This document shows positions 12,284 through 52,304 of a stretch of DNA of 64,000 bases, piece by piece. This DNA is from an uncultured virus (IMG/VR IMGVR_UViG_3300027861_004723) (taxonomy: Duplodnaviria; Heunggongvirae; Uroviricota; Caudoviricetes). The notes beneath the pieces are model-generated. The model ran no database searches and was not told the origin of the DNA. It saw only the letters and a program-made list of their open reading frames with translations. The translations under genes and the position numbers were made by a program. Each line of letters begins with the position of its first letter. Position 1 is the stretch's first letter. Where the stretch lies: IMG/VR virus record IMGVR_UViG_3300027861_004723; one strand, written 5' to 3'.

Positions 12284-12326
12284 CCCTACACTACCAGCTA
12301 GCCCACACTCAATCTAAAGAGAGATT

Positions 12327-16489: not shown

Positions 16490-16807
16490 ATGCTAATCAA
16501 AGGAGGAGAGTATCGTAAAATCCGGGTTCTCAAGGACATCGAAAGAGAAAGTTATTGCACCGGAGAAATGATGAGCTGGAAAGCTGGCAAATTTGAGGAA
16601 GGCTACGTCGATGAGCCAGGGCGGCGGGCTGAGATAAATTGGGGCTGAGGACAGATAACATTGCTCTTCGTGGAAGGGTATTCTGAGGACGGTAAAGTTT
16701 CGGGGGAATTTGAAATAATGGAACCGGGTAGCTGTGAAAACTGCACCTGGCAAGAAGATGGCCAGTTTTTAAGTGCATGTGATGCATGTGATCGGTCGAA
16801 TCACTAA
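16490..16807 (+). CDS. Candidate selenoprotein (105 aa, in-frame TGA at 16646-16648)
   Basis: AGGAGG RBS; frame stays open for 52 codons past the TGA to TAA; SECIS-like hairpin 16652-16685. Confidence 0.65.
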
Positions 16808-17221: not shown

Positions 17222-17812
17222 ATGCACAGAGAGCCCAAATTAATTCAACTACCTCCGCAGCTTTTCGTTGGCCCTGGGGTAGAATCTGAAAAAATGACCC
17301 CAGCAACTAATACGGCCAGTGGTTGGATTAAGCCCGAAGGCGGTTTGTGGACTTCTACTTACGACCCAGAGTGCGGAAGCGGATGGGTTCAGTGGAGTAT
17401 GGGGGAGCGGTTCCGGGTTGAGTGCGATGACGATTACGAAACTTGCTATTTTGATTGTTCCATTCTTTACCCAAAACCAGCTAGAATTCTTATAATTGAC
17501 ACCCACCAAGATTTGGTAGATGCTATACAAGATTACCATTTTGTAGGATCAGAACCTCGTTCCTACTATGCCGAGGATTACCTAGATTTTGAAGAAATAG
17601 CAGAGGACTATGATGCTGTTCATCTGACGGATCGTGGTCAGTGGAAGACCAGAAGAACACGCCCGGGATTATATGGGTGGGATTTAGAGTCTACTGTATG
17701 GTTAAGATGGATGTTTTCTGAGGTCGAACATATAGGAAGAGTTGGCTTCAGCAGTTGTGATATGTCAGCCACAGAAGAGAAAAAGTTAAAAATGCTGGGA
17801 TTGTTCCGATAA
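17222..17812 (+). CDS. Conserved hypothetical phage-type protein (KPxGGLWTS / YDAVHLT / YGWD motifs)
   Basis: Well-formed ORF; TGGTATGAT 6 nt before ATG. Confidence 0.7.
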   Translation: MHREPKLIQLPPQLFVGPGVESEKMTPATNTASGWIKPEGGLWTSTYDPECGSGWVQWSMGERFRVECDDDYETCYFDCSILYPKPARILIIDTHQDLVDAIQDYHFVGSEPRSYYAEDYLDFEEIAEDYDAVHLTDRGQWKTRRTRPGLYGWDLESTVWLRWMFSEVEHIGRVGFSSCDMSATEEKKLKMLGLFR

Positions 17813-24517: not shown

Positions 24518-25103
24518 TTTAGTACCAAGTGGAATTGACATTACAACAGGACAGTCGCAGAAAGTATCATCCGCAGATAATTTAGTAAACTCCAGCGGAA
24601 CGCCTTTGGCTGTTGGCGGGCTGCAATTGATCGAGCGCAAGGAGTTCTTGTCCGACACCGCGAGCTACACCTTCACAGGTCTTGATGGCGATACCGACGA
24701 AGAGTACGTCATCCAGGGCAGTGTTATGCACGGTACTGGTGCTGGCAATCATCAAGTTTATGTCCGCCCTAACGGACTCAGCACCAACCTGTCAGGCTTT
24801 TACGGGCAACTAGCTGGTGCTGTTTATTCGGGTGGGCCCCTGACGGGCTGGTGGCTCGCCGTCACTACCACCTCTGGCTTGGATCTTCCTGCACACGTAG
24901 ACGCCCACGTCTACGCGAAGCGGACGGGCGGGGGTCCTAATCGTCAACGCATGTTTCGTAACAACATGGTCCTCGCTGCCCCTCTTCTCGTGAACGGGAC
25001 CTGGAACGAGACGGTGACCAACATCACTTCCCTTCAGATCATTGCGACGATTGGCGTCATTGGGGTGGGCACCGAACTCAGCCTCTACAAGGTGATTAAG
25101 TAA
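24510..25103 (+). CDS. Putative virion or tail-fibre-associated protein, paralogue of 45182..45775
   Basis: Shared P.GID.TTGQ, LIE.KE, F.GLDG.TD..YV, G.W..T..N.TSL, LYK. Confidence 0.55.
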   Translation: MANLVPSGIDITTGQSQKVSSADNLVNSSGTPLAVGGLQLIERKEFLSDTASYTFTGLDGDTDEEYVIQGSVMHGTGAGNHQVYVRPNGLSTNLSGFYGQLAGAVYSGGPLTGWWLAVTTTSGLDLPAHVDAHVYAKRTGGGPNRQRMFRNNMVLAAPLLVNGTWNETVTNITSLQIIATIGVIGVGTELSLYKVIK

Positions 25104-27999: not shown

Positions 28000-29142
28000 T
28001 CACAGAGCAGCTTCGACCTTGTGGGCCGCTACGCGGATTTTTTTGGTGGCTCCTGAGATTGATTGTCGAACTTGGCGCTCCAAGAAGTCAACCTGAGCAT
28101 CTGTGAGGTCTTTGAGCACGTTCATGTGGGCCATGTTTACTGCCTCATCTGCGCCGCTGTCAAGTTCATCTGCAGCCGCAAGGGCTGCATCTACTGTGTA
28201 GAATACCACCCGCGAGCGGTTGAGGATTATGAAGTCGCCGCCCTCATAATACTCGTTTTCTAGCCGGTCAATAGCAGTTTCACTCAGACTGACGCTGACA
28301 GCATCCCAGGATTCCATAGCCAGCCGCAGGGAGGCAAGGGTTTCATGGTCACCGGCTGCGGATGCAACCTTCCATGCTCGCTGTAGGACGCGTTCTGGGT
28401 TTCGTCTATAGTAACGCGATTCCCCTCCCGAGTGTGTTCCCAATTCCGCTAACTCTGCGACTAGTGCAGCGCGTCTCGCATCACCACCACCGCAGCACCA
28501 ATCACAGCCCGAATAGGTTCGATCCATCTCTTTGATCGCAGCCCGAATATCTGCGATGGCCTTCGCCCGTTGCTCATCCGTCTCCCTAGCCTTCGCTTTA
28601 GCCTTCCGGCGCTCTAGCTTCTTCTTTCGGCGTGATTTAGGGTTTTTTCGTCTACGGTAACGTGATCTAAGCTCCCAGCCTGGTCCAGAAAGCCCACGAT
28701 GTCTTCGTTGCTGCGCCTGCTTATTTTCTGCAAAGCCTCCCCATCCGCTTCCTGAGCGGGAACCGGAACTGAGTTTTTTCGCACCATCTTGTGGGCACTT
28801 TCCTCTACAGTAAGGAAACGCACTACATGCCCAGAATAAACCATACCTACCTGATTTTACTACGCATGGATTTTCGCACCCCGGGCACTCTGGGGCGTCA
28901 GAAGGCCCAGTAGCTTTTTTCCTCTTAGCAGCTTTCTTCTTTTTCTTGGGAGTTTTCTTTTTTAGGAGGCGAGACTTAACAGCCTTTTTCTTGGGGGCTT
29001 TCTTTCTAGCAACTTTTTTCTTAGGAGCTTTTTTAGCCGTCCCACGGCTAGAAGCGGACTTATGCCGTTTACAATACGTGCGAGCACAAGAAAGCCCGCA
29101 CTTTTTACCATCGGATTTCTTATAAGCTTTGCACTTGTTCAT
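28000..29142 (-). CDS. Basic, histone-H1-like protein with a topoisomerase-type C4 Zn ribbon and RxNP motifs
   Basis: KKAPKKK repeats; CPGC...KSGRYGLFWACSAFPYC. Confidence 0.75.
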   Translation of the reverse strand: MNKCKAYKKSDGKKCGLSCARTYCKRHKSASSRGTAKKAPKKKVARKKAPKKKAVKSRLLKKKTPKKKKKAAKRKKATGPSDAPECPGCENPCVVKSGRYGLFWACSAFPYCRGKCPQDGAKKLSSGSRSGSGWGGFAENKQAQQRRHRGLSGPGWELRSRYRRRKNPKSRRKKKLERRKAKAKARETDEQRAKAIADIRAAIKEMDRTYSGCDWCCGGGDARRAALVAELAELGTHSGGESRYYRRNPERVLQRAWKVASAAGDHETLASLRLAMESWDAVSVSLSETAIDRLENEYYEGGDFIILNRSRVVFYTVDAALAAADELDSGADEAVNMAHMNVLKDLTDAQVDFLERQVRQSISGATKKIRVAAHKVEAAL

Positions 29143-32167: not shown

Positions 32168-34621
32168 CTAGCGCCGCCTTCTTCTCAATTTACGTTTGCT
32201 GCGTTTTCTAGTATAAGCGCAAGGCAAGTGTTCTTCCTGGTTACAGCACCACTGTTTGTTGCAAACAGGGCAGACGGCTCGGGCGTAGCAGCCTTTACAT
32301 AGTTTCTTTTTATTATGGTCGCACAGTTTCGTGCAGTCCTCGCAGAAAGGCTTTTTACAGTCATCGCATTTTTCGTGCGTATTAGTATCACACTCTACTT
32401 CTTCCTTGCCTGTTTTATTATTGACAACATACTCTTCTATCTCTGTGTTGGAACATTGCTCCGGCTCGCAATTCTCGCAGTGTCTGCAATCCCAGCCATC
32501 ATACGGGCAATCACAATCCTCGCAGCCTGTTACGCAGCTTTCACAGTAATCTCCATCACAATGTTCACAAGTCGTGCTGCAAGCAGGGCAGGTGCTCCCG
32601 CAGCTATCGCACCCGTTACTAGCTTCGCAGCTATCACAATAATCAGTACCACAGGTAGGACAACTATTAGTACACTCGGAACAGACACTGCCGTAACAGT
32701 TATTTTGCACCCCGCACTCACGAAGGTGGTCCCCGCACACAGCATTTTCGCAGGATTCGCATCTATACTGGCAATCTTCGCAAACTTCCACGTCACAGCA
32801 CTCTAGGGTGACTAGATCACTTGGGCCGTAGTCAGAGCCACAGCCAGCACATTCCGTAAGATGCTCATTACATACATAGTCGGCATTGTAGGACGAGCCA
32901 ACGTCCGTTGCACATTCATCACAATAATAAGCCGGTTCTGAATCTTTTACTGCAGGACCAACGCCTCTGGCTTCACATTCCCGGCACGTATGAGCATGAT
33001 CTTCACATACAAGACCGCAACAATCACCGCCCACGCACTTAAAGAATTTCTTGCATAGAGGACATCCGTGATCTTCTGGGTCGTCACTTTCCCCACAGTC
33101 GTAGCACCACATGTTTCTTATTCCAACCATGTTGTCCATTAGTTGTTGGTCGCCCTCATAATGACCGTGCGGTGGGCCATTACATAGCAGCAGATCAAAT
33201 CTATCCAGCGCCATAGATACCCTAGAAGGATCCGGTATAGTAGCTTCACTTTCTTTCTGCCCACAGGTATCACAATAATCTTCTCCATGGAGGTAAAGAT
33301 GCTGACCAGCGGGGCAGGGATCTGGCCCATACCCAGGAAGGGATCCTCCGAGAGGCGACCAGGTAGCTCCTTCTTCCCGCGCCCGACGCGCCAATACCTC
33401 CTCGCGGTCTATAGCCGAATCCATAGCCATCTGAAGTAGCTTAATGAGATCACCATACTCTTCCGTACTTATAGGATGAACACCACAATCATTGGTATCC
33501 ATAAATTGCATAGATTGGCAGTGAATTAGGCCATACTTCTTTTGGTCTCTCAGGATAAGATAGAGTGGGCCTTCCCTAAGATATGCCGCTGCAGTACCTT
33601 CATTACAAACACACCAGTTAGTCATATTAGCAGCCTTGCTAGCGGCTTTAGCATTGGTAATGCGTATAATCTGGTATTCTGTGCCGTTGATCAAATCACG
33701 AAAGATGGATTGCACACCCTCTTTTTGCAATTCCATCACACTTTTAGTCTCTGGTAGCCATTTCTTGACGAACATGAATAATTGCTGCGTGCTATTAAAG
33801 TTCTTTATTTGCCTATACTCTACGGGCAGTCTACGTTTAATACGATGATAGGTAGAGAGTAGCTCTCGGGTTTTTTCTGAATCCTCTGGCAATTTTATCT
33901 TGTTGTTTATTACAAGATTCATAATCCATTCACAATAACTACCTGATTTGCTAGGATCCGCTTCCCCTATTATAGCCATCTGTCTACGGATATCTGCTTC
34001 ACGTTTTGCTACATTGACCTGGATTGGTGATCCTACTTTTTTGGTTAGCTTGTTTTGGAACCGGTCCATGAGGTATTGGCGACGTTTATCACTAATGGGA
34101 TTGCGGTATCTCCTATCAAACTCCCCCAACTCGGCGCTCTCTCTTTGTGGATTAGGGAAAACCGCTCTAATGTCTAGAACTTTGCGTCTATCTTTTTTAC
34201 GTGGAGACGTATCAACAATAACCTCTCCATCGTAATCTAGTAATAATGCGTGCCCTTGAACTCGTATCATATAACGAGTCCCTTTAGGATCACCCCAAGA
34301 ATTTTCCGAGGCATGGCGGCCTAGCTCATGTGTGAGCCATTTAATTATATATTTTGCCCTGGCAACTGTCTTTACCCCCGGCTTATAGCCTATATTTCTG
34401 TAACCTCTTTTAAGATGTGAATTACGAGAACGTGCGGCCCATCCATTCTTACGAAGAATAGCAAGACGCTGTTTCAGCTGCCCGCTATAGTGATAAGAAC
34501 ATGAATTTATGCCGAAAGCAGCTAATACCGCACTAGTACAGACGGTTTTAGAGCCTCCTCTAAATCGGAGGTGTTCTGGCACTCCACGAGCATTGGGGTC
34601 TTCTCTAGGATTAGGTTGCAT
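32168..34621 (-). CDS. 817-aa protein: conserved phage domain plus long CxxC-repeat region
   Basis: ADPS..G.Y..WI, LPED.EK, TNWCV, YL.EGPLY; more than 30 CxxC-like pairs; TGATAAAAT 6 nt before ATG. Confidence 0.85.
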   Translation of the reverse strand: MQPNPREDPNARGVPEHLRFRGGSKTVCTSAVLAAFGINSCSYHYSGQLKQRLAILRKNGWAARSRNSHLKRGYRNIGYKPGVKTVARAKYIIKWLTHELGRHASENSWGDPKGTRYMIRVQGHALLLDYDGEVIVDTSPRKKDRRKVLDIRAVFPNPQRESAELGEFDRRYRNPISDKRRQYLMDRFQNKLTKKVGSPIQVNVAKREADIRRQMAIIGEADPSKSGSYCEWIMNLVINNKIKLPEDSEKTRELLSTYHRIKRRLPVEYRQIKNFNSTQQLFMFVKKWLPETKSVMELQKEGVQSIFRDLINGTEYQIIRITNAKAASKAANMTNWCVCNEGTAAAYLREGPLYLILRDQKKYGLIHCQSMQFMDTNDCGVHPISTEEYGDLIKLLQMAMDSAIDREEVLARRAREEGATWSPLGGSLPGYGPDPCPAGQHLYLHGEDYCDTCGQKESEATIPDPSRVSMALDRFDLLLCNGPPHGHYEGDQQLMDNMVGIRNMWCYDCGESDDPEDHGCPLCKKFFKCVGGDCCGLVCEDHAHTCRECEARGVGPAVKDSEPAYYCDECATDVGSSYNADYVCNEHLTECAGCGSDYGPSDLVTLECCDVEVCEDCQYRCESCENAVCGDHLRECGVQNNCYGSVCSECTNSCPTCGTDYCDSCEASNGCDSCGSTCPACSTTCEHCDGDYCESCVTGCEDCDCPYDGWDCRHCENCEPEQCSNTEIEEYVVNNKTGKEEVECDTNTHEKCDDCKKPFCEDCTKLCDHNKKKLCKGCYARAVCPVCNKQWCCNQEEHLPCAYTRKRSKRKLRRRRR

Positions 34622-34722
34622 AAATCTATTTTATCAAAAATGCGCTGATCTTTGATCTCTGATCTTTGTTCTTTGTAATAGCAGCGGGTTGTCTTAGCAA
34701 AAATATCATCTATACTTAGTAT

Positions 34723-35191
34723 GTGGAAGACATCAGAAAAACTCGCCTCCGCAAAGGCTTGGCCCAACTTAGCAAGGAGCAAATATCAAAGCTCCTTGAA
34801 GCCCCGGAAGAGTCCCTGGTTATGGATGAATTTTACTACCACGATGGGCTTTGGTGACCGCTAGCTGTAGCTCTGGAGTTACCAGGCAAAATAGACGATC
34901 CTACCAACGAAAAAGTTCGCGATACTATCACTGATATGGGATACCAGGTGATCCGAATCCTCAAGGGTTTCGAGATTCCTGTGCACGCCGTCGCGCTGAC
35001 GAAAATGGACCGCGTCGAGTACGACGAGCAGACCTTCCGAGATCGGGAGGCCGAGGTGCGTCTGCTCCTCGACGAGTACGGCGTCAAACAATGATCTCAA
35101 TCCAATGAAAGGCGTACCAGGCGTCTACTACACAACAGATAGGTATGAGGATTTAATCAGGCTTGCTAAAGAATTGTCACCTTTGCTATAA
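34723..35191 (+). CDS. Candidate selenoprotein gene (TGA 34855-34857), apparently interrupted by an insert of about 148 bp
   Basis: TATACT-N6-GTG; frame open past the TGA (W-TGA-PLAVALEL) to 35094; plausible native C-terminus NPMKGVPG...SPLL in the +1 frame, ending 35191. Confidence 0.55.
34945..35092 (+). pseudogene. Fragment of an EF-Tu/EF-1A/SelB/CysN-family GTPase (G4 region)
   Basis: AVALTKMDRVEYDEQTF....EVRLLLDEYG; about 59% GC by hand count, higher than the flanks. Confidence 0.6.
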
Positions 35192-35197
35192 TAGGGC

Positions 35198-37465
35198 ATG
35201 CCCTTACGTCGCTATAACCCCATCAGTGATTCCAGACTACCAAATATTCGTAGCTACATAATAAAATGGATGGTAGGCTACTATAATGAATTGGGTGCCA
35301 CGCGGAGAGCCGCACAGGATATTATCAAACCCTACCAAGACCTCATACACAAAGAGACAATCGGGCTATTTAAAATCAGAGTCTATTCTGAGCCCAAAGA
35401 ATTTAAGTCGTGGATGGAGCCAGGCTATGATCCTGGCCACAGATATGTAATTTTTGCACCAGCAGAAATCAATGAATACAACGATGAATACGCACGCTAT
35501 CCGCGTGTATTGGGCGGCGACCCAGGATCCTTTGTATCTGCGGAGAACAAGGTAAGCCCTACTGATGATAGAGATATACAACATACTCTTCTATTACTAA
35601 GAAGATCTTTTGAAGATGTAACCACCCATATTGAAAGTTCAGCGGATCACTTGCTGAGGCAACTTAAAGATGCTGATCCTACACACACGGGAGAATATGC
35701 ACGTTGGATAGCTAAACAAGTAATAGAAGAAAATCTACGGTTTCCAGAAGATATCGAAAAGGTTAATGATGATTTAACTGGTTTTCATGGTATCAAGGCT
35801 CGCAAAGTGCTGCCCAAAGAACATCGTGATATAAATAAGTTTGCTACATACGGAGAGTTTTTTGAAATTCTAAAGCAGTTTGGCGGGGTTCTTAGCGACC
35901 GGGAAAAAGTAGCCCGAGCTATGGAAAGTGGTAATACCATTTACGAATCTGAAACTTATCGGGTTATAGAAGTCAAAAAGTGGCAGCTAGCCAAACACCT
36001 TGCCCAAGGAACCGGTTGGTGTGTTCGTGGCACAGATATGGCCCAGCACTACCTGCAAGAACCGGAAAAGTATCCGTTATACTTCTTTTTTAGAGATGGT
36101 GAGCAATACGGCCTATTATCAAGTCGTCCAGACGAGCCACAATTTAAAGATGTAAACGATGTTGAGTTTACTAAAGAGGCTATTGAAGAAGATTCGGAAC
36201 TTGTAAGCATCTTACCCAAGATTTGTGATTGGATTGTCTGCGTTGGTTGTGGGACTGTTTATGCTGAAAAATTCGATTTAGATCGCTTTAGTGATGAACT
36301 ATCCGAATTGACTGGAACTAATTTTCAATCCGATAGGCCCATTCCAGTAAAAGACACTGGGGTTACTTTCGGGGTTGGCAGTTACCTGGTATTCCAGTCT
36401 CCCCCAGCCATAAGCAACTATCCTGTTATCACAACGGAAACAATGCTTAATGATAAGGTAATGCTTGGACCCGCCCGAGGAGTTTTAAAACAAATTGCTG
36501 ATGTAAAGTTTCCTGCTATTGATAAGTTTTTTGAGAAAGCTGGAATCTCTAACTCCGCTGATATTGTAAGGGATATTACGAAACGGGTTGTAGAGCCTTT
36601 GCTTTGTTCTTGTGGGGGCCTTGATAGACCTATCGATGCAGGGGAGGTTAGAGATGAAATTCTCCATGCTTTGTTTGTTATTCAGCCCTGCGAAGATTTT
36701 GGCGTTATGTCAGGCTACGTCGTATGCGGGCATGACTTATCGCCCAAATATCGAGGGCCTGCCTGCCCCGCTAGACTCATGGATTGGGGTCCTTTTGTTG
36801 GTATGCGCTGCGTCTGCGGAGTTTTCGTACCTTACGGATCAAGATTTTCCATATGCCCAGCTTGTTTACGAGATGATGAACCCACAGAATATTACACAGG
36901 ACGCCCGCTCGATGAAGATGAACAAGACGATCTTAACTGGACAGGTGATTATCCCAAAGACGGATGTCCTCTTGAGGAACTATCTCAGATATTATCCTCT
37001 ACTTTACCTAAATGGAGGCACGCAGCAACATTTAAGTGGGATTTTTCATATGACCCCAAGTTAAGAACGGGGCATAGTAGAGAGGCTAAGCCGAAATGGC
37101 ACTCCCAGAAACCTCCTTCCCTGGCAGAGAAACTTAACCTAAGAAAATCGATTGACATGTATGGGTACGCGGTGTGGAATATCCGTCCTCTTCCTAGGTG
37201 GCATGAATTTGCGCAGGTATACGTTGCGCTATACCAGTTTCCCGAGTTCCGTGACTTGCCAGAAGTCTACTTCAGCCCAGAATTCGGGGAATTTCTTTCT
37301 GAATACAGGGATCTTTTCGAAGCAGTCAATGAACAGCAGTATTTTGATAAGGAAGCCTTCATGTATCTACTAGATGCATTTGAGAATATATCCAGCGTAG
37401 TAAAGAAGATAATCAAAACTGACTCCCACGCACACAATTATTGTTGTGAGGCCCTTGATCCATAA
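35198..37465 (+). CDS. 755-aa RRYNP-tagged paralogue of the conserved domain in 32168 and 29735
   Basis: ADPT.TG.Y..WI, FPED.EK, TGWCV; TGCTATAAT 5 nt before ATG. Confidence 0.85.
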   Translation: MPLRRYNPISDSRLPNIRSYIIKWMVGYYNELGATRRAAQDIIKPYQDLIHKETIGLFKIRVYSEPKEFKSWMEPGYDPGHRYVIFAPAEINEYNDEYARYPRVLGGDPGSFVSAENKVSPTDDRDIQHTLLLLRRSFEDVTTHIESSADHLLRQLKDADPTHTGEYARWIAKQVIEENLRFPEDIEKVNDDLTGFHGIKARKVLPKEHRDINKFATYGEFFEILKQFGGVLSDREKVARAMESGNTIYESETYRVIEVKKWQLAKHLAQGTGWCVRGTDMAQHYLQEPEKYPLYFFFRDGEQYGLLSSRPDEPQFKDVNDVEFTKEAIEEDSELVSILPKICDWIVCVGCGTVYAEKFDLDRFSDELSELTGTNFQSDRPIPVKDTGVTFGVGSYLVFQSPPAISNYPVITTETMLNDKVMLGPARGVLKQIADVKFPAIDKFFEKAGISNSADIVRDITKRVVEPLLCSCGGLDRPIDAGEVRDEILHALFVIQPCEDFGVMSGYVVCGHDLSPKYRGPACPARLMDWGPFVGMRCVCGVFVPYGSRFSICPACLRDDEPTEYYTGRPLDEDEQDDLNWTGDYPKDGCPLEELSQILSSTLPKWRHAATFKWDFSYDPKLRTGHSREAKPKWHSQKPPSLAEKLNLRKSIDMYGYAVWNIRPLPRWHEFAQVYVALYQFPEFRDLPEVYFSPEFGEFLSEYRDLFEAVNEQQYFDKEAFMYLLDAFENISSVVKKIIKTDSHAHNYCCEALDP

Positions 37466-40287: not shown

Positions 40288-40716
40288 TTAGAAATCTAAT
40301 ACCCTAGCGCCCATCGACCCAAACTGGGCAAGACTGTTTATCCTTCCCATTTTAGCTTCTACTGCAGGGCATGGTTGGCAAGGTATTGAAGGTGTTATTG
40401 GGCAAGGTGGCGGTGACGGACAAGGTGAAGGTGTTGGGCAGGAAAATCCTGAAGGCTTTGGACAAGGTTTGGCTGTTGGGCAAGAGGGGGCTACGCAGGG
40501 CGTAGGTGCTGGGCACGACAATACGGGGCACGGCGGTGCCACGGGACAGACAGGACACGTTACGCGGTCATCCACTCCGTCAACTAGACTAGATAGTATA
40601 TAAGAAAGCCCTACTGAGATAAGCCAAAATTTGACCCTATCTTCTGGTTTCCAGAAGAAGTTCAACCCATAACCTATACCTAAAGTCCCTAAACCTATAA
40701 TAGCAGCTTTGTTCAC
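40288..40716 (-). CDS. Two-TM membrane protein with Cys/Pro-rich (CP) repeats
   Basis: TATAAT 6 nt before GTG 40716; CPVCPVAPPCP repeats. Confidence 0.7.
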   Translation of the reverse strand: MNKAAIIGLGTLGIGYGLNFFWKPEDRVKFWLISVGLSYILSSLVDGVDDRVTCPVCPVAPPCPVLSCPAPTPCVAPSCPTAKPCPKPSGFSCPTPSPCPSPPPCPITPSIPCQPCPAVEAKMGRINSLAQFGSMGARVLDF

Positions 40717-44430: not shown

Positions 44431-45096
44431 TTAGGCAGGATATCCCTGAGCATCAAAACAATCCTCAATCACCCTTAGCATACACTTTTGTAGGTTTTCC
44501 CAGTGTCGCGCACCGTGCGCTTCAAACCTTGGGTCGCCTGGGTGGTCAAGAGCACCCGTCAGCCGCACGCCGAGCCCGCCGACAGCGACGTGAGTGTCCT
44601 CGTGAGAGCCCTTATCCTTCATCCACCAGTAAGAGAATTCATCAGGAATCTCTTTTCCACGGGAGTCTAGGGTCAGGCCTGTTAGCACGCCCGCATGAAG
44701 AGTAATGGCTCCTAATAGCCTTACAGCCTCAATCCTTAACTCTGGGTATAGATGGAAATCATCTCCAGAAATCATATGGTCTAGTCTATCACACATCATA
44801 TTAAACACGTCCGTTTGCACACGCAACGTTTCTAGTCTTCCGTGAGCGAAGATTAAATTCCCGTCAATATCTCGGTCCTGATTTGGTCCTCTTTCGTGAT
44901 GACCTCTTGCAATCGGATCTCGCAGAACATGACGTTCTGTCCGAAGGTCTACAGCCCATTTGCGCTCGTCGTCGAGGGGCAGGTCTCCGTGATCCACCCG
45001 GTCGAGTGGCTTAGACTTTTTCTTTACCTTTTTCTTTGCGTTTCGGCGGTAATAGTGTTGTGGTTCATCTTCGGGATTTCTTCTTCTTCTATACAT
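44431..45096 (-). CDS. Protein starting MYRRRRNPEDEPQHYYRRNA
   Basis: TGCTATACT promoter and GGAG RBS before ATG 45096. Confidence 0.8.
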   Translation of the reverse strand: MYRRRRNPEDEPQHYYRRNAKKKVKKKSKPLDRVDHGDLPLDDERKWAVDLRTERHVLRDPIARGHHERGPNQDRDIDGNLIFAHGRLETLRVQTDVFNMMCDRLDHMISGDDFHLYPELRIEAVRLLGAITLHAGVLTGLTLDSRGKEIPDEFSYWWMKDKGSHEDTHVAVGGLGVRLTGALDHPGDPRFEAHGARHWENLQKCMLRVIEDCFDAQGYPA

Positions 45097-46589: not shown

Positions 46590-47630
46590 ACTGATACAAA
46601 CTTGCAACAAACTTGCAACAGCAACAGTAAGTTTTCAAAATTGCAACAGTTTGCAAAAGTTTGCAAAAAGTTGCTATAAGTTGTTTGTTTTCAACACCTT
46701 AGCGGTTACCACAAAGGGGATAGTCGGTGTAACCTACTGTCATATAAGGACTTATGACGAAACATATAATCTGCACCGGGGGGATGGGGGATGAGACGCC
46801 TGCGTCGGAAAAGCAGACTTATAGGACGCAACCGCTTGTAAACAGCTTACCAGAGCTTTGATACATGCTTAAAACGCTAAATGCACGTATACATGCACCT
46901 TTTAAGGCAAAAACGCGCTAAAAACAGCGTTACGTTGCACAAAGCTAGTAACTATGCTAATCAAAACTACGTTTCGGAATTGTGCGTGTTTGTTATCACG
47001 TTTGCTATAAAAACGCTTAAAAAGGGCCATTCTGGGCGTCGGTTTTCGGAGATGTTCGGGTTTTATTAGGTTTGGGGTAGGTTCGGGCGCTAGTTAGGGG
47101 TAAGTTAGGGTCTGGGCCTCGATGTTCGGGGTAGGTTAGGGTCCAGTGGCCCCCTACCAGTGGCCCCATATAAGGACTTAGGGCATAGTGGCCTAAACCA
47201 CTATCCCATATAGGGTTACGCTAAGGGTTGACCAGTGGTCTAGGCCATGATACCTTATAGGCAGTAGAGGACCGCTGGCCCCGTCCAGTGGCCCCTACCA
47301 GTGGCCCCAGGGGGGCGCTACCAGGGGGTCCAGTGGCCCCTACCAGTGGCCCCAGGAGGGCGCTAGGGGGTCCAGTGGCCTAAGCCTTTATCCCCCACCA
47401 CTTTACGCTAAGGGTTGCACTGGCCTAAACCCGTGGTATCTTATGGGTATTGGAGGGGTGTAGAGGCTTAGGCCAGTGCCCCCCAGGAGCCCAGGAGGGC
47501 GTGACACTGGCCCCAACCAGGGGCGTAGTATAGAGGGATAACCCCAGGAGCGGCCTAAGCGCCTATCCCAAGGCCCCTAAAGGACTTAGAGGAGCGGGGA
47601 GATAATCTCAACGCTAAGGGTTGTTTGAGC
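46590..47630. repeat. Non-coding repeat block (TTGCAA repeats, AAAACGC tracts, CCAGTGGCCCC repeats, ACGCTAAGGGTTG x3)
   Basis: No credible ORF; CCAGTGGCCCC(C)TACCAGTGGCCCC at about 47143, 47286 and 47330, plus single copies on both strands. Confidence 0.8.
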
Positions 47631-47684
47631 GGAAAAGCCGCTTACCCTATGGGCAGTGAAGAAGAACCACCAACGGAGAATTGA

Positions 47685-48008
47685 TTGAATATCAAAGCGT
47701 ATCTAACCGCCTTTCATAGCGAGGACGATAAGGGTCAAGTAAAGGTCCGCCCTATTCGGGTGCCTCAGACGATCTTAGCGGGCCTTGACAGCGAGGACAC
47801 CAACGCGCTGCTAAACGAGGCGTTCCGCTACGGGCAAAACGATTTCCAGCCTGTTGAGGGCTGCTACTCGCTCTCTGTGGGCGACGTGGTGGAGCTAGAC
47901 CCCGCTCGCCGCTATCGAGTCGCGTCGTTCGGATTTAAGCCGCTAGCGCCCTCTGACGATCCCGTGGCGCTAATCGGCTGGGACGCCCAGCAGGCTGGCC
48001 GGGGTTAG
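47685..48008 (+). CDS. YodL-like domain protein
   Basis: YSLSVGDVVEL....YRVASFGF; GGAG RBS. Confidence 0.55.
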   Translation: MNIKAYLTAFHSEDDKGQVKVRPIRVPQTILAGLDSEDTNALLNEAFRYGQNDFQPVEGCYSLSVGDVVELDPARRYRVASFGFKPLAPSDDPVALIGWDAQQAGRG

Positions 48009-48168
48009 TCCTTACGCTCTTTGCCCCCTATCCGTTTACCGGGTAGGGGGCTTAGGGCGATGCCCAGTAAAGGGTAGCACCGAAACGACTTAGAGATAAT
48101 CGGCGCTATCACTTGACTGGACAACGAGTCGGGTTTAAGATTGGCGACAGACGAGCAGGGAGGCTCTT

Positions 48169-49056
48169 ATGACGACTACGGCAGAAAAAGGCAAGACGCT
48201 AACAGCGTGCTGCCAGTGGGGGTTCTGGCAGGAGCCGGTGACGAACGCCGAGGGTCAATATACCGACCTTAGCGGCAAGGTCATCAAGAAGCCTATCATG
48301 CGGTGGGTTGAGGTGGGAACGCCCTGCAAGCCCTGTTTCGCCAAGGCTCAGGCCGAGCTAGACGACACCTGCGCCGATGGCCGGTGCAGCAAGGGCTTTT
48401 TCTGCGAGCAGCACGGCACGCAATACGACACGCCCCAGGAGTGGCCTACCACTAAGGCGGAGTACGAGGCCACTTTCGGCCAGCACCGTAACGTGCAGGT
48501 AGAGGGCGAGCGCAAGGTCGTTAGCGCCTATCACCGAAACCCGCTAACCGCTTTGACGGCTCTGGCGAAGCTGACCCAGCCCGCCCCCAAAGGCCGCAGC
48601 GTCAAAGAGTCGCTAACGGCGGTAAAGGCCGCTGTGGACCGGGTTTACACCCCGGAGGGGATCGACGCTATGGCTCGCCGCTGCCTCACCGAGCAGCAGA
48701 GCCAGGGACGCCACTGGCCCCTTTACGGGCAAGGGCTTTACGGGGATACCATTATTCTCGACAGCAACGCGGCGCTCTACCTCGCCCGCCTGGACGGAGA
48801 GGCCCCGGAGGTCGCCCAGGACGAGCCCCACGAGGACGAGCCCCAGGCCGCGACTCTGGTAGAGGAGGAGGACGACTACCCCGAGCCCGCCTACCAGGCT
48901 GACCCCGACGAGGGCCGTAGCGCCCTGGAGTGCGCCCTAGAGGCCGACTCCGAGGAGGAGGAGGCCGACGACGACGCGGACGCCTACGAGGCTCCCGCCG
49001 CCCAGGACGACGCCGACGACGCCGCCGCCCGCTGGCTCGCCCAGCACGAAGGATAG
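48169..49056 (+). CDS. Early protein with acidic C-terminus
   Basis: GGAGG RBS, own promoter, high GC. Confidence 0.75.
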   Translation: MTTTAEKGKTLTACCQWGFWQEPVTNAEGQYTDLSGKVIKKPIMRWVEVGTPCKPCFAKAQAELDDTCADGRCSKGFFCEQHGTQYDTPQEWPTTKAEYEATFGQHRNVQVEGERKVVSAYHRNPLTALTALAKLTQPAPKGRSVKESLTAVKAAVDRVYTPEGIDAMARRCLTEQQSQGRHWPLYGQGLYGDTIILDSNAALYLARLDGEAPEVAQDEPHEDEPQAATLVEEEDDYPEPAYQADPDEGRSALECALEADSEEEEADDDADAYEAPAAQDDADDAAARWLAQHEG

Positions 49057-49186
49057 GCCACTATCCCCCGCCCCGCTGCCCCCTACCAGCCCGACGCTGG
49101 TAGGGGGCTTAGGGCGATGCCCCTTATCTTGACAGGGATTGGTCGGCAGGCGATAATACCCACTAACCCAGCAAAAGGAGCCAAAC

Positions 49187-49471
49187 GTGGCAAAGACAAA
49201 GAATAAGCCTAAGAAGGCGAAGAAGTCACAAAAGGTCGAAGATACGGCTGAAGGCGCTTTTGTCCTAGAGTGGCTTGAAGAAGCCTGCGACGAATCAAAG
49301 GCCCTTAACGCTATTTTTAGCGACTCCTCGAAAAAGACATTGCGGACGTTTATCGCCGCGATGTGCGAACTCTGCGATGATTACGCAGAGGCCCTCTACG
49401 ACGACGAGGGCGACGACGAGGAGGACTACAGCGACGACGACGAGGACGACGACGAGGACGACGAGGACTAG
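49187..49471 (+). CDS. Small protein with basic N-terminus and very acidic D/E tail
   Basis: AAGGAG RBS; promoter at 49129. Confidence 0.75.
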   Translation: MAKTKNKPKKAKKSQKVEDTAEGAFVLEWLEEACDESKALNAIFSDSSKKTLRTFIAAMCELCDDYAEALYDDEGDDEEDYSDDDEDDDEDDED

Positions 49472-49498
49472 CCAACCGGCCAGACCCGAGCCCCAGAG

Positions 49499-49532
49499 AG
49501 GCCCTTACCGCTTTTAGTGGTAAGGGCCTTTT
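49499..49532 (+). terminator. Intrinsic terminator
   Basis: AGGCCCTTACCGCT / AGTGGTAAGGGCCT followed by a T-run. Confidence 0.75.
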
Positions 49533-50768
49533 CTGCATCTTTACCGCTTTATTTATTCTTGCGCTATGTATTGACTGGCTAAGAAGCCGCATGGTATGAT
49601 GCCAGGTTCGGTTTAGTGCGTTCCCAGATATGGGCTCAGAGGTCAAAGATCAGCGCACCAGATATGGGAAATGAGACGCAAATGAGCCAGTGGCCTTTTG
49701 TGACACGAACCGTTAGGGCCTACCCTAACTCTACCCTAACGGTGAATGTCTGACGCCAGATAACGGCTACCTAGAGGGGTGATGCTGGCCTTTTGTGGGT
49801 AGGGCCGTAGGAGCTTACCCAGTGGCCTATGAAACGAACCCCCATACGGTAGTATGGAGAGCCGATAAAAGCCGTTAGAGACGCCCCCAGTAGCTCTAAG
49901 AGTGTCAAGAACAAAAGCGGTTATCTCACGGAGTTTTCTTTCTTTTTTATTGGCTACGCTATGGGTTGACTGGACCCGGATAGTGCCTTAGCCTATGGGC
50001 AGTGGAAAGCAACTAGGAGGGCTTAAAATGTACGGAGGCAATTTCATGGGGCGGCTCGTGCCGTGCTCAATGTGTGGAAAAGCGGAAAGCGCGACAGACG
50101 CTAGCCCCTTTTGCGGAGCCTGTAACGAGGCTTATTACGCCGAGCAAGAGGAAGGCCGTAAGGCCGTAAAGGACACCCGCCAGTGCCGTTGCGAGGACTG
50201 CGAGGCACCGGGTCACTGCCGCAACTGTGGCGGCTGCGTCTACGAGATGAGCACCACAAGCGGATTGTGCGATAGCTGCTATCTTGGCGCGGGGTAAAGG
50301 TTTAAGGGCCTGGCAAGAAAATGCTTTTGCATATCTTGCCAGGAACCCTTACCCCGATTAAGATAGGGGCATAACCACCCAGGAGCGAACCTTGACCTTA
50401 GACGACGCCCACGAGATTGTTGAGCAATTAGATGCCAACAACGTCAACTCGACGATTTACTACGGCTATCAAGGCCGTGGCATGGACAACGCCACCACGG
50501 GCGTCGTTACCCGCAACGCGGACGACGCAATAGACGCTATGACCCAGCGAGGGATTATCTGGTCTTTCCGCCAGGACGCTATGGGGCTCGACACAATAAT
50601 CTACTAGGTCACTTGACAGTAATTCCTACCCGGTGTAGGATACGGCATAACGAAAACACGAGTCCTTCCTTCCTCTCGCCTGTTTGAAGCCCGCTATCGC
50701 TTGTTGCGATAGCGGGCTTAGGGTGATGCCGGGAGACTGGCACTAAACCACCAAACAAAGGCAATCCC

Positions 50769-51128
50769 TTGACCAACTTGCAGAGAATCCTAAACTTTCT
50801 CGCTGGGAACCCCCAGCCCCAGAGCGCCGCGAACATCGCTCGTGCCATGACGATCAAGGTCGGCACCGTCCGCGCCAACCTCAAGCGAGCGCGGGAGGCC
50901 GGAACGGTCCAGGCCAGCAAGCAGGGCAACGCCCAGCACTGGACCCTGGCGACGGTCCACGTCAACAAGGGGCGCACCACTCGTGCCCTGATCGTCTTGC
51001 TGCGCGAGCGCCAGGCCAAGCACCGAGAGGCCCTGGCGACCGGCTGGAGCCGCCGCGAGCGCCAGCAGGCCCGCCGAGGGGTCAAGCGCACCACGCGCCG
51101 CCTGGCGACCTTGGAGGCCCGCGTTTAG
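50769..51128 (+). CDS. Winged-helix DNA-binding protein
   Basis: RILNFL...SAANIARAM.IKVGTVRANLKR.REAG.V pattern. Confidence 0.65.
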   Translation: MTNLQRILNFLAGNPQPQSAANIARAMTIKVGTVRANLKRAREAGTVQASKQGNAQHWTLATVHVNKGRTTRALIVLLRERQAKHREALATGWSRRERQQARRGVKRTTRRLATLEARV

Positions 51129-51435
51129 CGGGTTACCCGCTCTTTCCCCCTAACCCCCTATCCGCCAGTCGGGTAGGGGGTTTAGGGCGATGCCGCCCAG
51201 GCGCAGTAAACCGCTAAAAAGCGACGGTAGCTGCAAAGGGAGCTAACTTTTAATGTTCGACGCCTCCTACCCGTTTAGCGGGTAGGGGGCTTAGAGCGAT
51301 GAGGCTGCTAAACACAGCAACATACACTAAGAAAGTTTCTTTTGTATGTATCGACAGGAATCGCAGAGAACCGTAGAATACAAACCGTCGAGCAGCAAGC
51401 ACGACAACGAACCCACCCGCTAGGAGTAGCAAACA

Positions 51436-52092
51436 ATGAGCATCGCTGACAAATTGAAGGCCCCAGAGGCTCCCGAAGCCGCCACCGCAACCGCCAGCAC
51501 GCCCGAGCCTGCCGTCGAGCCGAAGGCCAGCGCCAAGCCCCGGAAGCCCCGGAAGCCGCGCAAGCCCAAGAACACGATCACCGAGGCCGACGCGACGGCT
51601 TTCGCCGCCATGTTCAGCCCGGAGGAGATCCGCGCCAAGCTGTCCAGCCAGCACGTTGCCGCTCTCGGAACGTCGAGCTTCGAGAAGATCGTCGCTGGCC
51701 TTGTGGAACTGGGCCAGGCGTCCGAGAAGGAAGCCAAGGGGATCGAGTCCGTCCGCGTCTACCGCGACGGTCGCATTAAGACGAGCGGCGCTCGCAAGCA
51801 GCGTGCCAAGCGCACCCTGGGTGCCCGCCTTGGCGGCGACGAGGGTAGCGCCGAGCCCGAGGGTGAGGGTGAGGTCTTGCAGGCCGCGCTTGTCGCGCTC
51901 TACAGCAGCGAGGGCGGGCCGAAGCAGGCCGCAATCGTGGCGGCTCTCGCCAAGACGCGCCAGGGCGTCGAGTGCAGCCAGGCGACCGTCTCCAACTGGC
52001 TCCGAGGCGCGATCCCGAGCGCCCGCTTCCACAAGCGGCTCCGCAAGGTCTTGGAAAAGGCCGGGTTCCTCGAAACCGAGGCTAGCGACTAA
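51436..52092 (+). CDS. Protein with C-terminal XRE-like HTH
   Basis: QAAIVAAL...SQATVSNWLRG..P; AGGAG RBS. Confidence 0.6.
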   Translation: MSIADKLKAPEAPEAATATASTPEPAVEPKASAKPRKPRKPRKPKNTITEADATAFAAMFSPEEIRAKLSSQHVAALGTSSFEKIVAGLVELGQASEKEAKGIESVRVYRDGRIKTSGARKQRAKRTLGARLGGDEGSAEPEGEGEVLQAALVALYSSEGGPKQAAIVAALAKTRQGVECSQATVSNWLRGAIPSARFHKRLRKVLEKAGFLETEASD

Positions 52093-52304
52093 ACACTCCT
52101 GGCTCCGACCCCCCGCCCCTAACCCCTTGGTGGTTCTGGGCGAAAGGGGCGGGGGTGTTGGCCCTTTAGCCTTTGACGCTTTAAGCCCGTAGCTGGTAAA
52201 ACAGCACGGGCTTAGAGCGATGCTAGCGAATAAAGAAAAACATTCGCTATATGTAGACAGCAGCATCCTGCCCATGTTACCTTATGGGCAGTAGAGGGAA
52301 CCCA

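What the first reader, a model, noticed from the sequence alone, without database searches (positions are those of the whole stretch)
34723..34890. Candidate phage selenoprotein 2: W-UGA-PLAVAL
Seen: a leaderless-type start (TATACT-N6-GTG), 44 codons, TGA (34855), then a continuing open frame. A hairpin CUGUAGCU-CUGG-AGUUAC(C)AG has its loop 15 nt after the UGA, a weaker SECIS match than candidate 1. Two independent mid-gene UGAs, each with a 3' hairpin, make random nonsense mutation less likely. Inference: Sec in a U-P-L-A motif.
Basis: partly seen in the sequence, partly recalled or inferred. Interest (0 to 1): 0.75.

Follow-up and report, generated by a model that had tools for sequence, protein, structure and literature searches.

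The report
Probable selenoprotein gene in marine phage
The mid-gene UGA "stop" sits where relatives of this small phage-type gene have an invariant cysteine and is followed by a conserved RNA hairpin, so it most likely encodes selenocysteine, although this window's copy is also broken further downstream by an inserted piece of another gene.

Summary
GTG 34723, 44 codons, TGA 34855, then an open frame to TGA 35092. Contigs from three other sequencing runs carry the TGA unchanged.

Of 61 HMMER hits, 56 belong to this family. 51 have Cys at the aligned column (G-x-F/Y-C-P-L-A), 3 end just before it and 2 show W. All 5 related metagenome loci found (44-59% identical) have TGA at that codon, and homology continues after it. 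All 22 Cys-type loci have TGT or TGC.

The TGA clade is monophyletic. It carries a hairpin 19-20 nt after the UGA with a 5-nt N-G-[U/G]-[U/G]-N loop. The hairpin is present in 6 of 6 TGA loci and 0 of 17 distinct Cys loci, with compensatory changes in 4 of 6 pairs.

TGA is an ordinary stop elsewhere in the window. No Sec machinery could be examined.

Caveat: from 34945 the "continuing frame" is a 148-nt high-GC insert copied from an EF-1alpha-like GTPase gene. The family's true C-terminus lies at 35093-35191, out of frame.

Verdict: selenocysteine about 0.75.

The parts
34645..34672 (+). Tandem 14-nt upstream motif (CTGATCTTTGATCT / CTGATCTTTGTTCT), probably a promoter-associated element repeated in the genome
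   Evidence: Direct repeat D4. The same GATCTTTGATCT motif lies upstream of the L001 homologue. Other contigs in runs X5, X8 and X9 match only 34641-34672 (table 8).
34689..34716 (+). Promoter-like TTGTCT-16-TATACT; the -10 box ends 6 nt before the start codon (leaderless-type layout)
   Evidence: 9 of 12 matches; not more sites than shuffles give. TATACT is followed by 6-7 nt and the start codon in L001 and L002 too. The transcription start was not tested.
34723..34944 (+). N-terminal 74 codons of the family gene (GTG start, ends ...T-D-M-G-Y), containing the UGA
   Evidence: 59-60% identity to the L001 and L002 proteins over residues 1-76; alignments A1 and A2.
34855..34857 (+). In-frame TGA, proposed selenocysteine codon (codon 45)
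   Evidence: Same codon in 5 of 5 related loci. Cys in 51 of 56 family hits. Present in contigs of 3 other runs.
34870..34887 (+). Conserved SECIS-like hairpin: stem 34872-34876 / 34882-34886 (extended by G34870-C34887 and C34871-G34886 with U34872 bulged in the MFE fold), loop AGUUA 34877-34881, 19 nt after the UGA
34945..35092 (+). 148-nt foreign insert (GC 0.60, GC3 0.80). In the upstream frame it encodes 49 residues, 48 of them identical to residues 133-180 of an EF-1alpha-like GTPase (P0069)
   Evidence: Both junctions are spanned by contigs of runs X5, X6 and X9.
35092..35094 (+). TGA that ends the chimeric read-through frame, at the 3' junction of the insert
35093..35191 (+). Displaced true C-terminal part of the family gene (32 codons plus TAA), in frame +1 relative to the N-terminal part
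   Evidence: 75% identity to L002 protein residues 76-103; translation.

Best explanation
The gene starting at GTG 34723 belongs to an unnamed family of roughly 105-130-residue proteins found mainly on very large viral contigs. The family has one nearly invariant cysteine, in the motif G-x-[FY]-C-P-L-A. In one clade of the family, which includes this window, that cysteine codon is UGA.

The most likely mechanism is the standard bacterial one. During translation in a host that has the SelA/SelB/SelC/SelD system, SelB carrying Sec-tRNA binds a small hairpin inside the coding region. Here that hairpin is 34872-34886, with loop AGUUA 19 nt after the UGA. SelB then delivers selenocysteine at the UGA, so that Sec takes the place of the family's functional Cys.

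Shown here:
- the UGA is conserved;
- homologues have Cys at that column;
- coding continues past the UGA;
- the hairpin is conserved and covaries.

Inferred:
- that the inserted residue is Sec;
- that SelB reads the hairpin;
- that the host supplies the machinery.

The protein's function is unknown. In a confident model the Cys/Sec sits between a beta strand and the start of a helix, which suits a reactive nucleophilic or redox residue (inference).

In this window the gene has also been hit by a 148-nt insertion copied from an EF-1alpha-like GTPase gene. Read-through therefore now runs into foreign sequence and stops at 35092, and the conserved C-terminal third (35093-35191) is out of frame. 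I think this copy is probably a recently crippled gene (about 0.6), while the intact selenoprotein form is represented by loci L002, L003 and L005.
For: 1. UGA conservation. A metagenome scan used a peptide pattern lying just upstream of the stop. It returned 150 pattern matches, of which 5 encode relatives. All 5 (44-59% identical to the query) have TGA at the aligned codon and remain homologous after it. L002, L003 and L005 run on to a normal stop. Three further database proteins (P0037, P0039, P0054) end exactly before that column.

2. Sec/Cys pair. Of the 61 phmmer hits, 50 have C at the column by BLASTP and P0062 has C by MAFFT. Two have W, 3 are truncated and 5 are not family members. 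All 22 Cys-type loci read TGT or TGC.

3. Translation continues past the UGA. pN/pS is 0.39 for codons +1 to +12 and 0.33 for +13 to +29, against 0.22 upstream, with pS about 0.7-1.0. No ATG, GTG or TTG lies in frame between the UGA and the conserved block in the window.

4. Hairpin. All 6 TGA sequences have a 4-6 bp stem and a 5-nt loop (AGUUA, AGGUU, AGUUG, CGUGU, CGUGC, AGUUC) 19-20 nt after the UGA. At that place 0 of 17 distinct Cys-type sequences have one. Under a broad criterion the counts are 6 of 6 against 3 of 17. Synonymous-codon resampling matched the observed hairpin in 56, 38, 15, 6, 266 and 63 of 2000 trials (Fisher p about 5e-6). Four of 6 pairs show changes on both sides, 86% of cells are paired, and 1 of 500 shuffles does as well. 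The three TGA loci L003-L005 carry the same motif shifted by 1 nt relative to the reading frame, which points to selection on the RNA.

5. Fit to the published bacterial SECIS model. The model asks for a 3-9 nt loop, a 4-16 bp upper stem, G in the first two loop positions usually followed by G or U, and 16-37 nt spacing (PMC13188914, passages read).

6. No reassignment of TGA. TGA ends 11 of 42 main ORFs in the window, 4 of 18 in L002 and 1 of 7 in L005.

7. Single origin. The TGA loci form one clade (support 97/85) with long branches, so the codon has been kept through deep divergence.

8. A second case in the window. The frame with UGA 16646 has a homologue that ends at the same spot, and it has a hairpin with loop GUG 21 nt downstream.
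Against: - No Sec machinery was seen or could be sought. No genome is held for the window or for L002. The window has no tRNA and no Rfam family. L001-L005 have no tRNA-Sec. The host is unknown.
- The core hairpins are short and weak (-2.6 to -6.9 kcal/mol). The model's -7.5 kcal/mol threshold is reached only by longer folds, and some of those use other pairings. For the window alone the fold is not better than shuffles.
- No Rfam SECIS family matched at E <= 10.
- The narrow hairpin criterion was chosen after seeing the data. The six sequences are related, and alignment A6 was registered on the loop.
- Two clade members (P0003, P0023) are on record with W at the column. This could be a code-4 gene call of TGA, since L001, nearly identical to P0023, has TGA. 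It could also be a true TGG.
- The family has only one conserved Cys and no known fold or function, so there is no independent reason to expect redox chemistry.
- The window's own copy is interrupted.
Confidence: 0.75

Rival explanations
1. Programmed read-through of UGA by a standard near-cognate tRNA (Trp, Cys or Arg), helped by the UGA-C context and a downstream hairpin. The product would carry an ordinary residue at codon 45.
For: All six sequences have C immediately after the UGA. Two clade members are on record with W at the column. The hairpin is small. No Sec machinery was demonstrated.
Against: The column is Cys in 51 of 56 family members, so a Trp or Arg product would lack the family's one invariant residue. 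The C after the UGA is forced by the conserved Pro codon, which is also present in Cys forms. The hairpin's position and G[U/G] loop match the SelB-type model. L001, the near-identical DNA counterpart of the 'W' protein P0023, has TGA.
Confidence: 0.1
2. The UGA is a real stop. The clade makes a 44-residue peptide, and the downstream part is either untranslated or made separately.
For: Gene callers produced 44-52-residue proteins ending there (P0037, P0039, P0054). The window has an in-frame ATG at 34936.
Against: The 26 codons between the UGA and that ATG are conserved at the protein level with saturated synonymous change. They contain no in-frame start. Homology to Cys-type full-length proteins runs straight across the stop in one frame in 6 of 6 loci.
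Confidence: 0.05
3. The UGA is a plain inactivating nonsense mutation (pseudogene) and has nothing to do with recoding.
For: The window's copy is certainly damaged elsewhere, by the 148-nt insert. Cys TGT or TGC changes to TGA in one step.
Against: The same TGA occurs in 5 of 5 relatives, which differ at most synonymous sites. Three of them have otherwise intact frames. The clade is monophyletic with long branches. A covarying hairpin is present only in the TGA clade.
Confidence: 0.03
4. TGA is reassigned genome-wide (code 4 or 25, or a phage suppressor tRNA) in these elements or their hosts.
For: Some large phages are known to recode stop codons (recalled, not checked here). The two 'W' records suggest that a code-4 gene model was applied to short contigs.
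Against: TGA ends 11 of 42 ORFs in the window, and long ORFs are intact under table 11. The same holds in L002 and L005. The family gene itself ends in TGA in L002. There is no suppressor tRNA in the window or in L001-L005. Reading TAG or TGA as sense does not rescue long genes.
Confidence: 0.02

Closest known systems
Bacterial selenoprotein genes with an in-ORF SECIS read by SelB (consensus model as quoted in PMC13188914; the E. coli fdhF prototype is recalled)
   Same: In-frame UGA at the position of a conserved Cys in homologues. Hairpin inside the coding region 19-20 nt downstream, with a small loop carrying G followed by U or G. Coding continues in the same frame.
   Different: The protein family has no name, fold or function. 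It is carried on phage-like DNA rather than a bacterial chromosome. The stem is very short (4-6 bp). The decoding machinery was not observed.
Poxvirus glutathione-peroxidase selenoproteins (molluscum contagiosum, fowlpox; PMC8310308, passages read)
   Same: A virus-encoded selenoprotein that must use the host's Sec machinery. In fowlpox the SECIS lies in the coding region.
   Different: Those are eukaryotic viruses with captured cellular GPx genes and eukaryotic-type SECIS elements. This case is bacterial-type and involves an orphan protein family.
tRNA-Sec genes predicted in huge phage genomes (PMC10747093, passages read)
   Same: They suggest that large phages may take part in Sec decoding.
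   Different: In the passages read, that paper reports only tRNA predictions and names no selenoprotein gene. Here there is a selenoprotein candidate but no tRNA in the 64-kb window.
Orphan marine selenoprotein families GOS_A, GOS_B and GOS_C (PMC2398784, section 7 read)
   Same: Marine metagenomic Sec/Cys families of unknown function with SECIS-like hairpins.
   Different: [quoted passage not shown] GOS_C has a thioredoxin fold and a UxxC motif, which this family lacks.
Stop-codon-recoded phages (recalled)
   Same: An in-frame stop codon in a phage gene that is nevertheless translated.
   Different: Here only one or two codons are affected, and TGA is otherwise a normal stop.
Other candidate phage selenoproteins noted in this scan (e1-6004491, MuF head protein; e1-6134436, three small paralogues)
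   Same: UGA at a conserved Cys plus a hairpin in uncultured phage genomes (AI notes, unchecked by me).
   Different: They concern other genomes and, by their descriptions, other protein families. A sequence look-up with this protein found nothing.

Membership tests
Bacterial-type selenoprotein gene (Sec-UGA plus in-ORF SECIS) | In-frame UGA kept at the same codon in diverged orthologues | tested here: met
   5 of 5 related loci plus the window. 3 database proteins end there.
Bacterial-type selenoprotein gene (Sec-UGA plus in-ORF SECIS) | Cys-containing homologues with Cys aligned to the UGA | tested here: met
   51 of 56 family hits. 22 of 22 Cys-type loci read TGT or TGC.
Bacterial-type selenoprotein gene (Sec-UGA plus in-ORF SECIS) | Translation continues in frame after the UGA under protein-level constraint | tested here: met
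   pN/pS 0.33-0.39 downstream against 0.22 upstream.
Bacterial-type selenoprotein gene (Sec-UGA plus in-ORF SECIS) | bSECIS core: apical loop 3-9 nt, upper stem 4-16 bp, G in the first two loop positions, 16-37 nt from the UGA (PMC13188914) | tested here: met
   6 of 6: loop 5 nt, stem 4-6 bp, G at loop position 2, spacing 19-20 nt. Covariation in 4 of 6 pairs.
Bacterial-type selenoprotein gene (Sec-UGA plus in-ORF SECIS) | bSECIS minimum free energy <= -7.5 kcal/mol | tested here: inconclusive
   Core hairpins are -2.6 to -6.9. The 57-nt folds are -9.1 to -12.3, but several use other pairings.
Bacterial-type selenoprotein gene (Sec-UGA plus in-ORF SECIS) | selA, selB, selC (tRNA-Sec) and selD present in the host or the element | not testable with these tools
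   No genome is held for the window or L002. No tRNA or Rfam hit in the window. No tRNA-Sec in L001-L005.
Bacterial-type selenoprotein gene (Sec-UGA plus in-ORF SECIS) | Selenium in the protein | not testable with these tools
   This needs labelling or mass spectrometry.
Rfam SECIS families | Covariance-model match downstream of the UGA | tested here: inconclusive
   No SECIS family among 5 matches at E <= 10 in 33500-36500. Bacterial SECIS elements are diverse, so a miss is weak evidence.
Genome-wide TGA reassignment (code 4/25 or suppressor tRNA) | TGA not used as a stop, with many in-frame TGAs | tested here: not met
   TGA ends 11 of 42 ORFs. Only 7 same-frame TGA joins with coding signal on both sides were found in 64 kb.
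Any curated protein family (Pfam, PHROGs) | Profile match above threshold | tested here: not met
   0 families for the read-through protein. No shared family among 43 members at E <= 1.
Self-splicing intron (for the 148-nt insert) | Intron covariance-model match or unusually stable fold | tested here: not met
   No Rfam hit. Fold z = -1.36. The insert is 48 of 49 residues identical to part of a GTPase coding sequence.
Leaderless mRNA | Transcript 5' end at or next to the start codon | not testable with these tools
   Only the -10 box spacing is seen. No RNA run is listed.

The most novel reading that the evidence does not exclude
These marine giant phage-like elements may carry a small selenoproteome of their own: at least two unrelated genes with conserved UGA plus hairpin in this window (34855 and 16646). 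They may also bring part of the decoding apparatus, rather than relying wholly on the host. A candidate for that role is the divergent EF-1alpha-like GTPase, a fragment of which sits in this very gene, or a tRNA-Sec elsewhere in the genome. Sec decoding would then be a phage-controlled trait and a marker of host range.
Probability: 0.1. Interest if true: 0.9.

Novelty: new member of a known kind. Interest (0 to 1): 0.66.

Why it matters
If confirmed, this would be a bacteriophage-borne, bacterial-type selenoprotein family.

I found none in print. Four searches turned up nothing. The main texts of a 2026 review of prokaryotic selenoproteomes, of BSepDB and of deep-Sep contain no occurrence of 'phage' or 'virus'.

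Four consequences would follow:
- Gene callers cut these genes at 44-52 residues (P0037, P0039, P0054), so the family is mis-annotated in databases.
- The UGA marks the single reactive residue of an orphan protein family that is widespread in jumbo phages, which gives a handle on its function.
- A phage selenoprotein requires a Sec-competent host, so it predicts something about the unknown host.
- It offers a compact natural SECIS, a 15-nt stem-loop, for study.

The scan's own earlier notes list two other phage candidates, so this may be a recurring and overlooked phenomenon.

Tried and rejected
**Genome and collection access**
- Whole-genome searches for tRNA-Sec, selB and selD could not run, because no genome is held for the window. 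The L002 record is not held either.
- The phage collection had no DNA or protein match.
- The word-index protein search found nothing for the read-through protein. Only the full HMMER scan did.
- The viral-contig scans for the TGA clade, for candidate 1, for the window's own DNA and for the donor GTPase all came back empty. The P0003 scan gave only a spurious 19-residue match.
- Alignment A1 was too diverse for a locus scan, so I used A2 and A4 instead.

**Function**
- Pfam, PHROGs, Foldseek against PDB and BFVD, VIA-align wide (best Z 4.2) and the ESM Atlas gave no usable match.

**Alternative genetic codes**
- I considered TAG or TGA recoding of the ORF-poor 47-64 kb part. No clear lengthening of genes resulted.

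**The insert**
- An intron or ribozyme reading has no support: no Rfam match and fold z = -1.36.
- There is no second copy of the insert and no rest of the GTPase gene in the window.

**Expression and coverage**
- No RNA holder is listed.
- The contigs of run X5 do not cover 34849-34884, and those of X8 do not cover about 34950-35146. These are gaps, not evidence.

**Other checks**
- P0002 (2009 residues, 29 matched stretches) is a low-complexity tandem-repeat sequence, and I disregarded it.
- The Phycisphaerales MAG that carries a Cys-type copy has no selB above the cut-off (best 165 bits against 242) and no close relative of the GTPase. This bears only on a Cys-type relative.
- The GOS paper's supplements hold none of five family motifs.
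- Earlier notes of this scan have nothing for this genome or this sequence.
Full report
**1. The observation**

The window reads TATACT (34711-34716), six bases, then GTG at 34723. There are 44 sense codons, TGA at 34855, and the same frame stays open to TGA at 35092. The gene lies in a 575-nt gap between two divergently transcribed large genes, 32168-34621 on the minus strand and 35198-37465 on the plus strand.

Both halves of the frame have codon usage like the window's long genes: 0.30 and 0.27 bits per codon, against 0.20-0.35 for 13 training ORFs.

It is not the minimum-energy fold, and the region folds no better than shuffles (z = -1.28, 21 of 200).

Contigs assembled from three other public seawater or marine runs (X6, X8, X9) cover 34855 with no differing letter. 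A fourth run, X5, has a contig break there. So the TGA is real DNA in a population seen in several studies.

**2. What the gene is**

Pfam and PHROGs give nothing, and the word-index protein search gave nothing.

A full HMMER scan of 1.84 billion representatives, using the read-through translation as query, gave 61 hits at E <= 0.001.
- Five are not family members. One is a low-complexity repeat protein. Four are EF-1alpha-like GTPases that match only query residues 65-122.
- Of the other 56, 51 have Cys at the column aligned to the TGA, within G-x-[FY]-C-P-L-A (50 by BLASTP, plus P0062 by MAFFT).
- Three (44, 44 and 52 residues) end exactly before that column.
- Two (P0003, P0023) show W. Both come from single short assembly contigs.

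**3. DNA of relatives**

I scanned metagenome contigs with a peptide pattern that lies just upstream of the stop. Of 150 pattern matches, 5 encode relatives. They are 44-59% identical to the query.

All five have TGA at the aligned codon, followed by P-[LIE]-A and continued homology. L002, L003 and L005 run on to ordinary stops (TGA, TAA, TAA). L001 and L004 reach the ends of their contigs. L001 is nearly identical to the 'W' protein P0023, so that W is probably a code-4 gene call of a TGA.

For the Cys-type branch I recovered 21 loci from viral contigs of 9-481 kb (15 of them over 95 kb) and one from a Phycisphaerales MAG. All 22 read TGT or TGC.

A maximum-likelihood tree of 43 members puts the five TGA loci and P0003 in one clade (support 97/85), with terminal branches of 0.5-1.6 changes per site. 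The UGA therefore arose once and has been kept through deep divergence.

Synonymous sites among the six TGA sequences are near saturation (pS 0.7-1.0). Meanwhile pN/pS is 0.39 and 0.33 in the two blocks after the UGA, against 0.22 before it. The sequence after the stop is translated in this frame. No in-frame ATG, GTG or TTG lies between the UGA and the conserved P-T-N-E block in the window.

**4. The RNA signal**

All six TGA sequences can form a 4-6 bp stem closing a 5-nt loop 19-20 nt after the UGA.

| Sequence | Hairpin (stem-loop-stem) |
|---|---|
| window | UCUGG-AGUUA-CCAGG (34872-34886) |
| L001 | CUUGG-AGGUU-CCAAG |
| L002 | CCUGG-AGUUG-CCAGG |
| L003 | UCUCGG-CGUGU-CCGAGA |
| L004 | UCGG-CGUGC-CCGA |
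| L005 | AUUGG-AGUUC-CCAAU |

In L003-L005 the motif sits one base later relative to the reading frame.

On an alignment registered on the loop, 86% of cells pair and 4 of 6 pairs change on both sides. One of 500 shuffles does as well, and sliding the partner by one to three columns drops pairing to 21-56%.

At that place none of 17 distinct Cys-type sequences has such a hairpin. Under a broad criterion the counts are 6 of 6 against 3 of 17. Mean folding energy of the 30-nt segment is -6.5 against -3.8 kcal/mol (Mann-Whitney p = 0.018).

Resampling synonymous codons reproduced an equally good hairpin in 56, 38, 15, 6, 266 and 63 of 2000 trials (combined p about 5e-6).

Three caveats apply. I chose the narrow criterion after seeing the data. 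The six sequences are related. The alignment was fitted to the structure.

The geometry fits the consensus bacterial SECIS model quoted in a 2026 review: loop of 3-9 nt, upper stem of 4-16 bp, G in the first two loop positions usually followed by G or U, and 16-37 nt from the UGA (PMC13188914, passages read). The model's energy threshold of -7.5 kcal/mol is not met by the core hairpins alone, which are -2.6 to -6.9.

No Rfam SECIS family matched.

**5. Alternatives**

- *Genome-wide reassignment of TGA* is excluded by stop usage. TGA ends 11 of 42 main ORFs in the window, 4 of 18 in L002 and 1 of 7 in L005, and it ends the family gene itself in L002. No tRNA is present in the window or, apart from one tRNA-Arg in L005, in L001-L005.
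- *A simple nonsense mutation* is excluded by the conservation described above.
- *True termination* is contradicted by the constraint on the downstream codons.
- *Read-through by an ordinary tRNA* cannot be excluded. It would, however, put Trp or Arg at the one invariant residue of the family.

I therefore put selenocysteine at about 0.75. What is missing is any view of selA, selB, selC or selD. No genome is held for the window or for L002, and the host is unknown.

**6. An unexpected complication in this window**

tblastn of the L002 and L001 proteins against the window shows that family homology stops at ...T-D-M-G-Y (34944). It resumes at 35093 in the +1 frame as D-L-N-P-M-K-G-V-P-G-V-Y-Y-T-T-D-R-Y-E-D-L-I-R-L-A-K-E-L-S-P-L-L-stop, which is 75% identical to L002 residues 76-103.

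The 148 nt in between have GC 0.60 and GC3 0.80. The flanking gene parts have GC3 0.49 and 0.41.

In the upstream frame the insert encodes 49 residues. Of these, 48 are identical to residues 133-180 of P0069, a 458-residue EF-1alpha-like GTPase from a 171-kb contig. This is the region around its T-K-M-D motif. Related GTPases score best with EF-1alpha models but fall below their cut-offs.

Both junctions are spanned by contigs from runs X5, X6 and X9, so the insert is not an artefact of one assembly. No joint lacking the insert was seen in four runs.

It does not look like an intron: no Rfam match and fold z = -1.36. The rest of the GTPase gene is not in the window. Its composition resembles the window's own high-GC part at 48-54 kb, where ORFs have GC3 0.61-0.82. 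The donor may therefore lie elsewhere in the same genome, but that is a guess.

Removing 148 nt would join G-Y to D-L-N-P-M-K-G in frame. As the DNA stands, read-through gives a chimeric 122-residue product lacking the family's conserved C-terminal block. I think this copy is probably a recently disabled gene (about 0.6). The intact form of the selenoprotein is seen in L002, L003 and L005.

**7. Function and setting**

An AlphaFold2 model of the L002 protein, built with 43 aligned members, is confident (mean pLDDT 94.8, pTM 0.83). It has five helices and a small beta hairpin, and residue 45 sits between the second strand and helix 46-50.

No solved or predicted viral structure matches. Foldseek gave no hit at E <= 0.001 in PDB or BFVD, and the best VIA-align Z was 4.2. 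The ESM Atlas gave no usable hit for a Cys-type member.

In Cys-type loci the gene lies next to, or one gene away from, an IF-3 gene (L006, L008, L013). It lies near a methionyl-tRNA synthetase in L019 and next to a thioredoxin-like gene in L021 and L023. These hints at translation or redox roles are too weak to build on.

The window itself carries a helicase, asparagine synthase, tRNA nucleotidyltransferase, RNA ligase and a NUDIX-NADAR protein among many orphan ORFs. This is typical of very large phages, but no virion gene lies in the 64 kb. 'Phage' is therefore likely, not shown. L002 sits in a 711-kb contig, and a cluster mate occurs on a 938-kb contig.

**8. The second mid-gene UGA**

A scan for same-frame TGA joins with coding signal on both sides gave 7 cases. 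Its only database homologue (57 residues, 65% identical) ends exactly at the same point. The UGA is followed by an 8-bp stem with loop GUG 21 nt downstream. No Cys homologue was found for it.

**9. Novelty**

Four full-text searches found no phage selenoprotein.

What I read:
- Passages of PMC13188914, for which a term search found no 'phage', 'virus' or 'viral' in the main text.
- Term searches of BSepDB (PMC13326102) and deep-Sep (PMC12013277), which gave no occurrence.
- Passages of PMC10747093, which predicts tRNA-Sec genes in three huge phages and speculates about selenoproteins.
- Passages of PMC8310308 on the poxvirus GPx selenoproteins.
- Section 7 and a supplement search of the GOS study PMC2398784.

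Two earlier notes of this scan describe other phage candidates. They are unchecked leads, not support.

The mechanism proposed here is the ordinary bacterial one. What is new is the protein family and its carrier.

Noticed in passing
window 16490-16807 (+), TGA at 16646: A second small frame with a mid-gene UGA (…E-I-N-W-G-U-G-Q-I-T…). Both halves have coding-like codon usage. Its only homologue, P0067 (57 aa, 65% identical), ends exactly at that codon. An 8-bp hairpin with loop GUG lies 21 nt downstream. No Cys homologue was found.
   Followed up: partly
window 47000-64000: GC rises to 0.51-0.61 (0.42-0.50 before) with A>T skew of +0.07 to +0.19. There are few long ORFs and none has a Pfam or PHROG match. 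ORFs there have GC3 0.61-0.82. Reading TAG or TGA as sense does not clearly restore long genes. This compositional compartment is unexplained.
   Followed up: partly
window 5083-5433, 5544-5752, 11975-12313, 12669-12875, 15739-15924, 17298-17434, 24741-25089, 28262-28597, 33264-33452, 40394-40607, 44458-44682, 44885-45015: Further short islands with GC >= 0.58 inside the low-GC part, several of them within long ORFs. They may be other foreign or ectopic fragments like the 148-nt insert.
   Followed up: no
window 34645-34672; L001 about 1067-1085: The tandem motif CTGATCTTTGATCT lies upstream of the gene. The same GATCTTTGATCT motif lies upstream of the L001 homologue. Other contigs in runs X5, X8 and X9 match only these 32 nt. 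It is probably a repeated promoter or operator element of this group of phages.
   Followed up: partly
window 35163-35198: The next gene (755 aa) has TTGCTA-18-TATAAT ending 5 nt before its ATG at 35198. This is again a leaderless-type layout, and the -10 box overlaps the TAA of the displaced C-terminal part.
   Followed up: no
window 32168-34621 (-) and 35198-37465 (+): The two large flanking proteins appear, by eye, to share a central segment (…P-E-D-x-E-K… H-x-I-K… R-x-I-N/K-x-F…). The 817-aa protein has a very Cys-rich C-terminal half. Neither matches any family.
   Followed up: no
window 19507 and 47682: Two further same-frame TGA joins with coding signal on both sides. At 19507 an ATG follows two codons later, so these are probably just adjacent genes.
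   Followed up: no
L006 3329-3871, L008 3750-4289, L013 3326-3874, L019 194-1729: Jumbo viral contigs that carry the Cys-type gene encode a full IF-3 (both domains) beside it, or one gene away. One contig encodes a methionyl-tRNA synthetase nearby.
   Followed up: partly
L002 (contig of 711,776 nt); cluster of P0039/P0068: The closest intact TGA-type gene lies in a 711-kb contig, and a cluster mate occurs on 47 contigs of up to 938 kb. This is at or beyond the largest phage genome size mentioned in a 2025 preprint abstract (841 kb, listing). The carrier may not be a conventional phage.
   Followed up: no
P0069, P0036, P0042, P0053 (database proteins): The donor family of the insert is a divergent EF-1alpha-like GTPase with G-H-A-W-H-G-K-S-T, D-T-P-G-Q-E and T-K-M-D motifs. 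It scores below the cut-offs of the EF-1alpha, CysN, SelB and EF-Tu models. Its role is unknown.
   Followed up: partly
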